This document shows, piece by piece, positions 9,342 through 48,434 of a stretch of DNA of 64,000 nucleotides. The translations under genes and the position numbers were made by a program. The notes beneath the pieces are model-generated. The model did no database searches and was not told the DNA's origin. It saw nothing but the letters and a program-made list of their open reading frames with translations. Within the stretch, counting starts at the first letter, position 1; every line of letters begins with the position of its first letter. Location of the stretch: assembly GCA_011364965.1 (NCBI GenBank), contig RDOB01000001.1, positions 128,001 through 192,000 of the forward strand, in the 5' to 3' direction. Source of the DNA: Candidatus Heimdallarchaeota archaeon. GTDB lineage: Archaea; Asgardarchaeota; Heimdallarchaeia; Hodarchaeales; Hodarchaeaceae.

Positions 9342-9350
9342 AAAAAAAAA
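9342..9350 (-). terminator. Oligo-U terminator of the 5S rRNA precursor
   Basis: T9 run on the minus strand just after the 3' arm of the processing stem. Confidence 0.55.
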
Positions 9351-9385
9351 TAATAATGTTACGCTTATGCCAAGGAGAGTTCTGT

Positions 9386-9506
9386 TTCCGGGTTCGGAAC
9401 GAGACCGGGTGTTCCTCAGGCCCTTTGGCCGGGCAAGTACCCAGCTTTCCGATGTTCCCGTAGGCGCTAGCACAACAGTACAGATCGGAACGGAGCCTAA
9501 CTTAAC
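9386..9506 (-). rRNA. rrf: 5S rRNA gene, circularly permuted (3' half 9506-9438, CU linker, 5' half 9435-9386)
   Basis: Minus strand reads GTTAAGTTAGGCTCCGTTCCGATCTGTACTG...CGGGAACATCGGAAAGCTGGGTA-CT-TGCCCGGCCAAAGGGCCTGAGGAACACCCGGTCTCGTTCCGAACCCGGAA; helix I (UGCCCGGC/GCUGGGUA), helix II (GGGCCUGA/UUAGGCUC), loop C CCGAAC and helix V (UUCCGAU/AUCGGAA) all pair; 121 nt. Confidence 0.9.
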
Positions 9507-9585
9507 TTTCGGCAGAATCTCGCAAAACTCGGCGTAACGCGTTGATTGGTGAGATTACACACCAATACGGGCACAATCAAGAATC

Positions 9586-9593
9586 TTTATAAA
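9586..9593 (-). promoter_or_regulatory. TATA box of the 5S rRNA precursor
   Basis: TTTATAAA about 20-25 nt upstream of a leader hairpin (ATTGGTG/CACCAAT) that precedes the processing stem; palindromic, so it could also serve the divergent gene. Confidence 0.55.
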
Positions 9594-48329: not shown

Positions 48330-48434
48330 GGACCCATGGCTTAGCCTGGATAAAGCGACGGCCTTCTAAGTCGTAGATCGGGGGTTCAAAATCCTGATCC
48401 TTGATGGATTCGGATGAAATTCCCCTTGGGTCCG
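48330..48434 (+). tRNA. tRNA-Arg(TCT) with a T-loop intron (59/60: 48391-48420)
   Basis: ACGGC-CTTCTAA-GTCGT anticodon arm; BHB-like TTCA/TGAA helix with AAA and ATT bulges. Confidence 0.9.

What the first reader, a model, noticed from the sequence alone, without database searches (positions are those of the whole stretch)
9358..9538. Circularly permuted 5S rRNA gene with a BHB-like processing stem: predicted circular 5S rRNA
Seen: on the minus strand the 3' half of 5S rRNA (GUUAAGUUAGGC...GCUGGGUA, 9506-9438) comes before the 5' half (UGCCCGGC...CCGAACCCGGAA, 9435-9386). The usual termini are joined by CU, so helix I becomes a hairpin. The flanks pair into a long stem: GUUACGC/GCGUAAC (9538-9532 with 9364-9358), further GC-rich pairs, and UUCUG/CAGAA (9517-9513 with 9384-9380). 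Inside this lies a relaxed bulge-helix-bulge: CCGA-AAG on the 5' strand and CCGG-AAA on the 3' strand, with one A-C mismatch in the central helix. Established: archaeal splicing endonuclease EndA cuts after the second nucleotide of each bulge and RtcB ligates. Applied here, this joins ...CCGAACCCGGAA to GUUAAG..., giving the conserved 5S junction exactly and a 121-nt circle. The unit has its own TATA box and oligo-U terminator. Precedents are the permuted SRP RNA of Thermoproteus and permuted tRNAs; I know of no permuted 5S rRNA gene. Inference: this lineage makes its 5S rRNA by splicing-mediated circularisation, and standard rRNA finders would miss or truncate the gene.
Basis: partly seen in the sequence, partly recalled or inferred. 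Interest (0 to 1): 0.95.

Follow-up and report, generated by a model that had tools for sequence, protein, structure and literature searches.

The report
Back-to-front 5S rRNA gene, Asgard archaea
This Hodarchaeales (Asgard) genome encodes its only detectable 5S ribosomal RNA with the back half before the front half, inside a conserved tRNA-splicing-type cut-and-join signal. The same layout occurs across most sampled Asgard lineages, and it explains why 5S genes were reported as undetectable in these close relatives of eukaryotes.

Summary
On the minus strand, 9506-9438 is the 3' half of 5S rRNA, CU closes helix I, and 9435-9386 is the 5' half. The flanks form an outer stem plus a bulge-helix-bulge (BHB) with one A-C mismatch. 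Rfam finds no 5S in the window or genome, only a 25-nt fragment.

It is not an artefact. The same layout is the only archaeal-type 5S found in 79 of 83 Heimdallarchaeia genomes, including closed chromosomes, and in many other Asgard families. A permutation-specific pattern hit 76 stretches among 185,579 species genomes; nearly all are labelled Asgard or unclassified archaeon, one Bathyarchaeia.

- The rotated 5S fold is 97.6% paired, with compensatory changes at 24 of 37 pairs.
- With cut sites fixed by 5S homology, 59 of 67 flank pairs have a perfect 4-bp central helix.
- The predicted join always rebuilds GGAA|GUUAAG.
- The genome encodes two EndA paralogues and RtcB.

Not shown: the RNA itself.

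No archaeal permuted 5S gene was found in the literature searched. This scan had already noted the same feature on other genomes.

The parts
9586..9593 (-). TATA-like box TTTATAAA, about 80-88 nt upstream of GUUAAG
   Evidence: Read directly. An A/T box of the type TATTTAAAG or TTTATAAAG followed by (N)CTCTTGA sits at about the same distance in genus relatives. Promoter function is inferred.
9545..9566 (-). Leader inverted repeat ATTGGTG-N8-CACCAAT
   Evidence: The arms covary by eye in genus relatives, e.g. TTAGTG/CACTAA, GTTTGT/ACAAAC, TTGTAG/CTACAA. Role unknown; not counted formally.
9513..9538 (-). 5' strand of the outer processing stem (GUUACGC ... GCGAGAUUCUG)
   Evidence: Pairs with 9358-9384. 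On A1 the stem and central helix are 87% paired, 8 of 13 pairs have compensatory changes, and 0 of 500 shuffles reach the covariation score. RNAalifold finds the inner part without guidance.
9509..9512 (-). BHB central helix, 5' strand (CCGA)
   Evidence: Pairs with CCGG 9391-9388 with one A-C mismatch. Relatives show CCGG/CCGG, CUGG/CCAG, CAGG/CCUG, CGGG/CCUG, CGUG/CACG and CCGC/GCGG.
9506..9508 (-). 5' bulge AAG; predicted cut between 9507 and 9506
   Evidence: Follows from the BHB rule (cut after the second bulge nucleotide, established knowledge) applied. Not tested biochemically.
9438..9506 (-). 3' half of 5S rRNA (3' strand of helix II, helices IV and V, loops D and E, 3' strand of helix I)
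9436..9437 (-). CU linker joining the ancestral 3' and 5' ends; helix I becomes a hairpin with loop ACUU
   Evidence: Helix I covaries (helix 5).
9386..9435 (-). 5' half of 5S rRNA (5' strand of helix I, 5' strand of helix II, helix III and loop C)
   Evidence: RF00001 partial hit 27-51 at 9386-9410.
9388..9391 (-). BHB central helix, 3' strand (CCGG); also the 3' strand of 5S helix III
9385..9387 (-). 3' bulge AAA; predicted cut between 9386 and 9385
   Evidence: BHB rule applied. Joining 9386 to 9506 gives GGAA|GUUAAG.
9358..9384 (-). 3' strand of the outer processing stem (CAGAACUCUC ... GCGUAAC)
9342..9350 (-). T9 run, likely archaeal terminator
   Evidence: T-rich tracts follow the stem in relatives. 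Function is inferred.

Best explanation
This is the functional, single-copy 5S rRNA gene of a Hodarchaeales archaeon, encoded in circularly permuted order: 3' half, then a helix I cap, then the 5' half. A roughly 210-nt primary transcript runs from its own TATA-type promoter to the T9 run. Its leader and trailer pair into a processing stem that presents a bulge-helix-bulge motif.

The tRNA-splicing endonuclease cuts after the second nucleotide of each bulge, after 9507 and after 9386. RtcB then joins the 2',3'-cyclic phosphate and 5'-OH ends of the excised 121-nt piece. The join recreates the universal ...CCGAACCCGGAA-GUUAAG... segment, so the RNA can fold into the normal three-armed 5S shape. 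Helix I is closed by a small loop instead of carrying free ends.

The most likely mature form is the covalent circle.

- Shown here: gene order, conservation, covariation of the 5S fold and of the BHB and stem, exact reconstruction of the junction, no collinear copy found, and presence of the enzymes.
- Inferred: cleavage by EndA, ligation, and that the circle rather than a re-opened form sits in the ribosome.

My odds by step:
- functional permuted gene processed at the BHB: about 0.9
- ends ligated: about 0.75
- circle is the ribosomal form: about 0.5
For: 1. Order and coordinates were read directly. Rfam sees only fragments.

2. No collinear 5S was found in G000. Only this one permuted copy matches my model R1. 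Closed same-genus chromosomes (CP070695, CP070665, CP070760) also carry only the permuted form. The two full RF00001 hits among relatives lie next to bacterial 23S on contigs of about 2.5 kb and are contaminants.

3. The 5S structure in permuted order is 97.6% paired over 24 sequences, 24 of 37 pairs have compensatory changes, and 0 of 500 shuffles reach this. The rotated sequence folds by minimum free energy into the canonical three-way junction and aligns full-length at 57-66% identity to collinear Asgard 5S.

4. R1 gives full-length hits in 79 of 83 Heimdallarchaeia genomes across all 7 families, and in many other Asgard families. A permutation-specific pattern found 76 stretches in 185,579 species genomes. 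Nearly all are labelled Asgard or unclassified archaeon, and one is labelled Bathyarchaeia.

5. With cut sites fixed by 5S homology, 59 of 67 distinct flank pairs have a 4/4 central helix and 8 have 3/4. The outer helix averages 5.9 bp against 1.3 for cross-paired flanks, and 0 of 2000 permutations reach this. The leader is complementary to the 3' strand rather than identical to it (CUGG/CCAG, CAGG/CCUG, CGUG/CACG), which argues against a mere duplication remnant. Two registers occur, and both give the same junction.

6. Collinear Asgard 5S genes have no such flanks; they show a TATA-like box about 25 nt upstream and T-rich sequence at or just after the 3' end.

7. G000 has two EndA paralogues, one with and one without the catalytic His by my reading. 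It also has RtcB.

8. Helix I is capped by UNCG tetraloops in 27 of 40 distinct hairpins. This looks like a structural cap, not a spacer.

9. Some relatives carry a second BHB in the same RNA, a 30-nt intron whose removal restores CCGAA|CCCGG.

10. Precedents: circular SRP RNA from a permuted gene cut by EndA (PMC4731332), and E. coli ribosomes that tolerate a 5S with linked native ends (PMC7283268, abstract).
Against:
- In this genome the central helix has an A-C mismatch, so the motif is relaxed. The mismatch recurs in 8 of 19 aligned relatives.
- The 3' strand of the central helix is also the 3' strand of 5S helix III, so the BHB competes with a local hairpin. The single-sequence MFE of the whole precursor does not draw the BHB and is not clearly better than shuffles (z = -1.97).
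- In Heimdallarchaeaceae a hairpin interrupts the outer helix.
- G000 is only 87% complete.
- A later check recorded in this scan's notes priced the ring-in-the-ribosome claim at 35/100 (note e1-1162836).
Confidence: 0.7

Rival explanations
1. Circular intermediate, linear product. The BHB is cut and ligated as above, but the circle is then re-opened in the helix I loop to give a conventional linear 5S with normal ends. Permuted tRNA genes of Cyanidioschyzon merolae mature this way, through a circular intermediate.
For: The precedent is cited in PMC4267664. Every known cytoplasmic 5S has free ends at helix I. In the window's genus the cap is not a UNCG loop but a 3-5 nt A/U-rich loop.
Against: The linker is only 2-5 nt and is a UNCG tetraloop in 27 of 40 distinct hairpins. 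That leaves no room for a recognisable processing signal. No nuclease is known that would open it. The permuted SRP RNA of Thermoproteus stays circular.
Confidence: 0.12
2. Cut but not joined. EndA or another nuclease trims the flanks, and the mature 5S is a linear permuted RNA whose ends lie between helix III and helix II, held together by base pairing.
For: Brown-algal mitochondrial 5S is permuted in the final, linear product (PMC4267664). Helices II and III could hold a nicked molecule together.
Against: Products of the archaeal splicing endonuclease are the natural substrates of RtcB, which the genome encodes. The two cut sites shift together between lineages so that the joined sequence stays exactly GGAA|GUUAAG; this is expected if continuity is selected. 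Notes of this scan report rejoined forms in environmental RNA for other genomes, unverified by me.
Confidence: 0.15
3. Artefact or pseudogene. The locus is a misassembly, a collapsed tandem repeat or a dead rearranged copy, and the real 5S lies in unassembled sequence.
For: G000 is 87% complete in 16 contigs. rRNA genes are often missing from MAGs.
Against: The same arrangement occurs in closed chromosomes from independent studies. It is present in 79 of 83 genomes of the class. Compensatory changes maintain both the 5S helices and the processing stem. Closed Heimdallarchaeum genomes were reported to lack a predictable 5S (PMC8813620), yet each holds two permuted copies.
Confidence: 0.01

Closest known systems
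Permuted SRP RNA gene of Thermoproteus tenax (Plagens et al. 2015, eLife, PMC4731332)
   Same: A universal, highly structured non-coding RNA encoded with its 3' part before its 5' part. The canonical gene was 'missing' from the genomes. [quoted passage not shown]
   Different: A different RNA (5S rRNA, a ribosome component). The distribution is most sampled families of a phylum rather than some Thermoproteus species. Circularisation is demonstrated there by RNA-seq and cleavage assays, and only inferred here.
Circularly permuted tRNA genes (Cyanidioschyzon merolae, Soma et al. 2007, as cited in PMC4267664; Thermofilum pendens, from my own knowledge)
   Same: 3' half upstream of 5' half, a BHB at the junction of the termini, and a circular RNA made by the splicing machinery.
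   Different: In tRNAs the circle is an intermediate that is re-opened to give normal ends. Here the ancestral ends are joined by a tight 2-5 nt cap with no evident processing signal.
BHB-dependent excision and circularisation of archaeal pre-16S and pre-23S rRNA, and permuted or circular 23S rRNA (PMC7758197, PMC12918454)
   Same: A processing stem with a BHB flanking an rRNA, and an EndA/RtcB-made circle. Circular or permuted 23S has been reported in ribosomes.
   Different: Those genes are collinear, and permutation arises at the RNA level. PMC12918454 states that such processing involves 16S and 23S 'but not 5S rRNAs'. Here the gene itself is permuted, so ligation is needed to restore the sequence.
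Permuted mitochondrial 5S rRNA of brown algae and other stramenopiles (Valach et al. 2014, PMC4267664)
   Same: A 5S rRNA in which helix I is a closed hairpin and the ends lie elsewhere. Standard models miss or mis-delimit the gene.
   Different: It is organellar. The ends lie at the alpha/gamma domain junction. There is no BHB, the final product is linear, and the origin is independent.

Membership tests
5S rRNA (Rfam RF00001) | Match to the covariance model at or above the gathering score (38 bits) in genomic order | tested here: not met
   Only 19.6 bits for model 27-51 and 12.7 bits for a forced global alignment, and nothing at gathering. The failure is explained by the permutation; it is not evidence against homology.
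5S rRNA (Rfam RF00001) | Three-way junction with helices I-V, supported by covariation, once the two halves are put in canonical order | tested here: met
   97.6% paired, 24 of 37 pairs compensatory, 0 of 500 shuffles. The MFE of the rotated sequence is the canonical fold, and it aligns at 57-66% identity to collinear Asgard 5S.
5S rRNA (Rfam RF00001) | Conserved loop and junction motifs (CCGAAC of loop C, GGAAGUUAAG, GUACU...GGGAA of loop E) | tested here: met
   All are present and invariant or nearly so in A2. GGAAGUUAAG exists only after the predicted join.
5S rRNA (Rfam RF00001) | Incorporated into the large ribosomal subunit | not testable with these tools
   Inferred from it being the only 5S-like gene found in the genome and in closed relatives.
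Permuted RNA genes expressed through BHB cleavage and ligation (permuted tRNAs, Thermoproteus SRP RNA) | 3' part encoded upstream of the 5' part in one transcription unit | tested here: met
Permuted RNA genes expressed through BHB cleavage and ligation (permuted tRNAs, Thermoproteus SRP RNA) | Leader and trailer form a BHB: a 4-bp helix between two 3-nt bulges, flanked by helices | tested here: met
   Relaxed in this window (3 bp plus A-C). Canonical in most relatives: 59 of 67 have 4/4, with an outer helix of up to 15 bp (12 was the counting cap). The inner helix h' is weak.
Permuted RNA genes expressed through BHB cleavage and ligation (permuted tRNAs, Thermoproteus SRP RNA) | Cuts after the second bulge nucleotide, followed by ligation, restore the canonical mature sequence | tested here: met
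   The junction GGAA|GUUAAG (or GGA|AGUUAAG in the other register) is restored, and the commonest predicted product lengths are 120-124 nt.
Permuted RNA genes expressed through BHB cleavage and ligation (permuted tRNAs, Thermoproteus SRP RNA) | Splicing endonuclease and RtcB ligase encoded by the organism | tested here: met
   Two tRNA_int_endo proteins (92.1 and 64.8 bits) and RtcB (552.9 bits).
Permuted RNA genes expressed through BHB cleavage and ligation (permuted tRNAs, Thermoproteus SRP RNA) | Junction-spanning or circular RNA detected | not tested
Permuted mitochondrial 5S (mtPerm-5S, Valach et al. 2014) | Ends relocated to the alpha/gamma junction, with a linear permuted final product | tested here: not met
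   Here the break lies between helix III and helix II (after GGAA), and the flanks carry a BHB. This resembles that family but is not a member.

The most novel reading that the evidence does not exclude
The 5S rRNA in the ribosomes of most Asgard archaea, including Hodarchaeales, is a covalently closed circle made by the tRNA-splicing machinery. The permutation, which has one shared break point in every permuted lineage seen here, dates back to an early Asgard ancestor. Gene order of 5S would then be a rare genomic character bearing on where eukaryotes, which have collinear 5S, attach to the Asgard tree. Either eukaryotes reverted to the collinear order, or they derive from a lineage that kept it.
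Probability: 0.3. Interest if true: 0.95.

Novelty: new variant of a known kind. Interest (0 to 1): 0.88.

Why it matters
5S rRNA is universal, and its gene is regarded as easy to find in archaea. Yet closed Heimdallarchaeum genomes were published with the remark that 5S genes 'could not be predicted' (PMC8813620). This finding resolves that gap with a concrete and testable gene model.

It also extends BHB-dependent gene permutation from tRNA and SRP RNA to a ribosomal RNA, and it predicts a natural circular 5S rRNA.

Within Asgard archaea the sampled families split cleanly into those with the permuted gene and those with a collinear one. This is a discrete character on the branch leading towards eukaryotes.

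On the practical side, rRNA annotation and genome-quality criteria that require a 5S gene will systematically fail for these lineages. A permuted covariance model such as R1 fixes that.

Tried and rejected
I substituted an MFE fold, an alignment to collinear Asgard 5S and pair counts.
- Single-sequence fold of the whole precursor: it gives a long terminal stem but not the BHB, because helix III competes, and its z-score is only -1.97. It is uninformative on its own.
- My first free-register BHB scoring picked spurious registers for some Heimdallarchaeaceae and Atabeyarchaeia loci. I replaced it with a test that fixes cut sites by 5S homology.
- Duplication-remnant idea for the leader CCGG: rejected, because leaders are complementary to the 3' strand and not identical to it in several lineages.
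- Full RF00001 hits in G006 and G023: rejected as bacterial contaminant contigs.
- RF00001 '1-120' hits at 31 bits in G028 and G038: these are permuted genes forced into a global alignment.
- Record labels such as 'Hermodarchaeota' or 'Thorarchaeota' on some hits appear unreliable. Their sequences match Hod-type and Heimdall-type 5S.
- Literature: eight searches for permuted or circular 5S in archaea or Asgard, or for related background, found no prior description in the library held.

Full report
**What is in the window**

Read on the minus strand, 9538-9358 contains the following parts in order:
- the 5' strand of an outer stem, 9538-9513
- CCGA, 9512-9509
- AAG, 9508-9506
- the 3' half of 5S rRNA from GUUAAG, 9506-9438
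- a CU linker, 9437-9436
- the 5' half of 5S, 9435-9386, ending ...CCGAACCCGGAA
- AAA, 9387-9385 (its first two A's are the last two bases of the 5' half)
- the 3' strand of the outer stem, 9384-9358.

A TTTATAAA box lies at 9593-9586 and a T9 run at 9350-9342. The unit is a G+C peak in an A+T-rich intergenic gap.

Rfam at gathering threshold finds no 5S in the window or in the whole 2.97-Mb assembly. At a relaxed threshold it finds only model positions 27-51 (19.6 bits) and a poor forced alignment.

**It is a real, conserved gene**

In 19 of 21 further genomes of the same genus the only RF00001 signal was the same kind of sub-threshold fragment. The two full-length hits among relatives sit beside bacterial 23S rRNA on contigs of about 2.5 kb and are contamination.

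All 26 archaeal loci in which the layout could be read show the same back-to-front layout, with a core of 120-122 nt. On a 24-sequence alignment from five families, the canonical 5S helices written in permuted order are 97.6% paired. Compensatory changes occur at 24 of 37 pairs, no shuffle of 500 reaches the observed values, and slid controls collapse. RNAalifold recovers helices I, II, IV and V and the flanking stem without guidance.

The 121-nt piece between the predicted cuts, once rotated, folds by minimum free energy into the textbook three-armed 5S. It aligns end to end with collinear Asgard 5S rRNAs at 57-66% identity.

**Distribution**

I built a covariance model of the permuted gene, R1.
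- It gives full-length hits in 79 of 83 genomes of the class, in all seven families.
- It gives full-length hits in many other families of the phylum.
- RF00001 run over the same phylum sample gives the complement. Collinear 5S above threshold is concentrated in a few families: f11 26/26, f17 17/19, f20 3/5, f15, f27, f28. The only above-threshold match in Heimdallarchaeia is a 38.4-bit forced alignment at a permuted locus (G067, f7).

A pattern that can match only the permuted order was run over one genome for each of 185,579 prokaryotic species and returned 76 stretches. Nearly all are labelled as Asgard (Heimdall-, Hod-, Odin-, Atabey-, Baldr-, Hermod-, Hel-, Thor-archaeota, Asgardarchaeum), as Promethearchaeota/Promethearchaeati, or as unclassified archaeon; one is labelled Bathyarchaeia. 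Some labels look unreliable.

The hits include closed chromosomes: CP070695, CP070665 and CP070760 (the window's genus, Hodarchaeales), CP084166 and CP084167 (Heimdallarchaeum, two copies each), and CP147779 and CP147780 (Atabeyarchaeia). The paper describing the Heimdallarchaeum genomes states that 5S rRNA genes 'could not be predicted' (PMC8813620).

**The processing signal**

I fixed the cut sites by 5S homology, allowing only two registers one base apart. Under that constraint:
- 59 of 67 distinct flank pairs have a perfect 4-bp central helix between two 3-nt bulges
- the other 8, including this window, have CCGA/CCGG with an A-C mismatch
- the outer helix averages 5.9 contiguous pairs, against 1.3 when 5' and 3' flanks of different genomes are cross-paired
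- 0 of 2000 permutations reach the observed pairing.

Central-helix variants include CCGG/CCGG, CUGG/CCAG, CAGG/CCUG, CGGG/CCUG, CGUG/CACG and CCGC/GCGG. The leader is therefore kept complementary to the 3' strand, not identical to it, which excludes a simple duplication remnant.

In both registers the predicted join gives the invariant ...GGAAGUUAAG... Odin-type genes have a fully canonical motif with a 10-bp outer helix. Within Heimdallarchaeia the stem and central helix are 87% paired, with compensatory changes at 8 of 13 pairs.

Collinear Asgard 5S genes lack any such flanks and look like simple TATA-to-oligo-T units.

**Enzymes**

The genome encodes two splicing-endonuclease paralogues, each with N- and C-terminal domains. 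One retains the catalytic His and the other lacks it, by my reading of the sequences. This suggests a heterotetrameric enzyme. From established knowledge, that type accepts relaxed BHB motifs, which fits the A-C mismatch here. RtcB is also present.

**Mature form**

Helix I is capped by a UNCG tetraloop in 27 of 40 distinct hairpins; in this genus the cap is a 3-5 nt loop. Such caps look structural rather than like spacers meant for removal.

Two precedents bear on this. The circular SRP RNA of Thermoproteus comes from a permuted gene. E. coli ribosomes function with a circularly permuted 5S linked to 23S rRNA.

Together these make a mature circle the best reading, but I could not obtain RNA data. 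A re-opened linear form and a nicked permuted form therefore remain live rivals.

**Known or new**

The literature searches found no archaeal permuted or circular 5S. A 2026 paper on archaeal rRNA circularisation explicitly excludes 5S from such processing. The mechanism class is known from permuted tRNA and SRP RNA genes. Its application to 5S rRNA, and its spread across most sampled families of a phylum, are new in the library searched.

This scan's own notes show the same feature reported before on at least 68 other genomes. Some of those notes claim junction reads in environmental RNA, which I did not verify.

Noticed in passing
L068:1621-1650 (G001, same genus) and L170:222-251 (G109, an A+T-rich family that looks Loki-type): A 30-nt insertion at the same site in loop C of the permuted 5S, after CCGAA. 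It is bounded by its own BHB (UCCG/CGGG, with bulges AAA or AAU and AAC). Removing it restores CCGAA|CCCGG exactly, so it looks like a splicing-endonuclease intron inside a 5S rRNA gene. Other genomes of G109's family (f14) give matches of about 166 nt that may hold the same insertion.
   Followed up: partly
L004:1470-1555, L025, L026, L027, L029 (Heimdallarchaeaceae, f3): In this family a conserved hairpin (e.g. UCUGGA-UGUGU-UCCAGA) is inserted between the outer stem and the central BHB helix on the 5' strand. The 3' bulge therefore sits at a three-way junction rather than in a plain helix.
   Followed up: partly
window 9545-9566 (-): A leader inverted repeat, ATTGGTG-N8-CACCAAT, lies just downstream of the TATA-like box. 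Its arms covary by eye in genus relatives. It could be an RNA hairpin at the 5' end of the precursor or a regulatory site; not counted formally.
   Followed up: partly
L154-L165 (families f11, f17, f20 and others of the same phylum): Some Asgard families keep a conventional collinear 5S gene above the Rfam threshold, with no BHB flanks. The sampled families divide cleanly into permuted and collinear groups. I could not name these families.
   Followed up: partly
G023:C510:3670-3957; CP084166 and CP084167 (L099/L134, L109/L121): The permuted gene is sometimes multi-copy: two tandem units 27 nt apart in G023, and two dispersed copies in each closed Heimdallarchaeum genome. RF00001 gives a 31-bit '1-120' hit across the G023 tandem pair, which acts as a natural unrolled test of the permutation.
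   Followed up: no
L002 (G023:C798) and L003 (G006:C310): Short contigs carrying bacterial 23S plus 5S rRNA inside two Asgard MAGs. These are contamination and could be mistaken for the missing 5S.
   Followed up: yes
G000:C13:74167-74421 and 105545-105805 (upstream of the window on the same contig): Two splicing-endonuclease paralogues of 156 and 214 aa. The second lacks the catalytic His by my reading and has a weak Sen15-like match (E = 0.00057, below the Pfam cut-off). This hints at a eukaryote-like heteromeric enzyme.
   Followed up: partly
window 48335-48404 (+): ARAGORN calls a 70-nt tRNA-Arg(TCT) with the anticodon at position 31, which Rfam does not report at gathering threshold. It is either a false positive or an atypical tRNA.
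   Followed up: no
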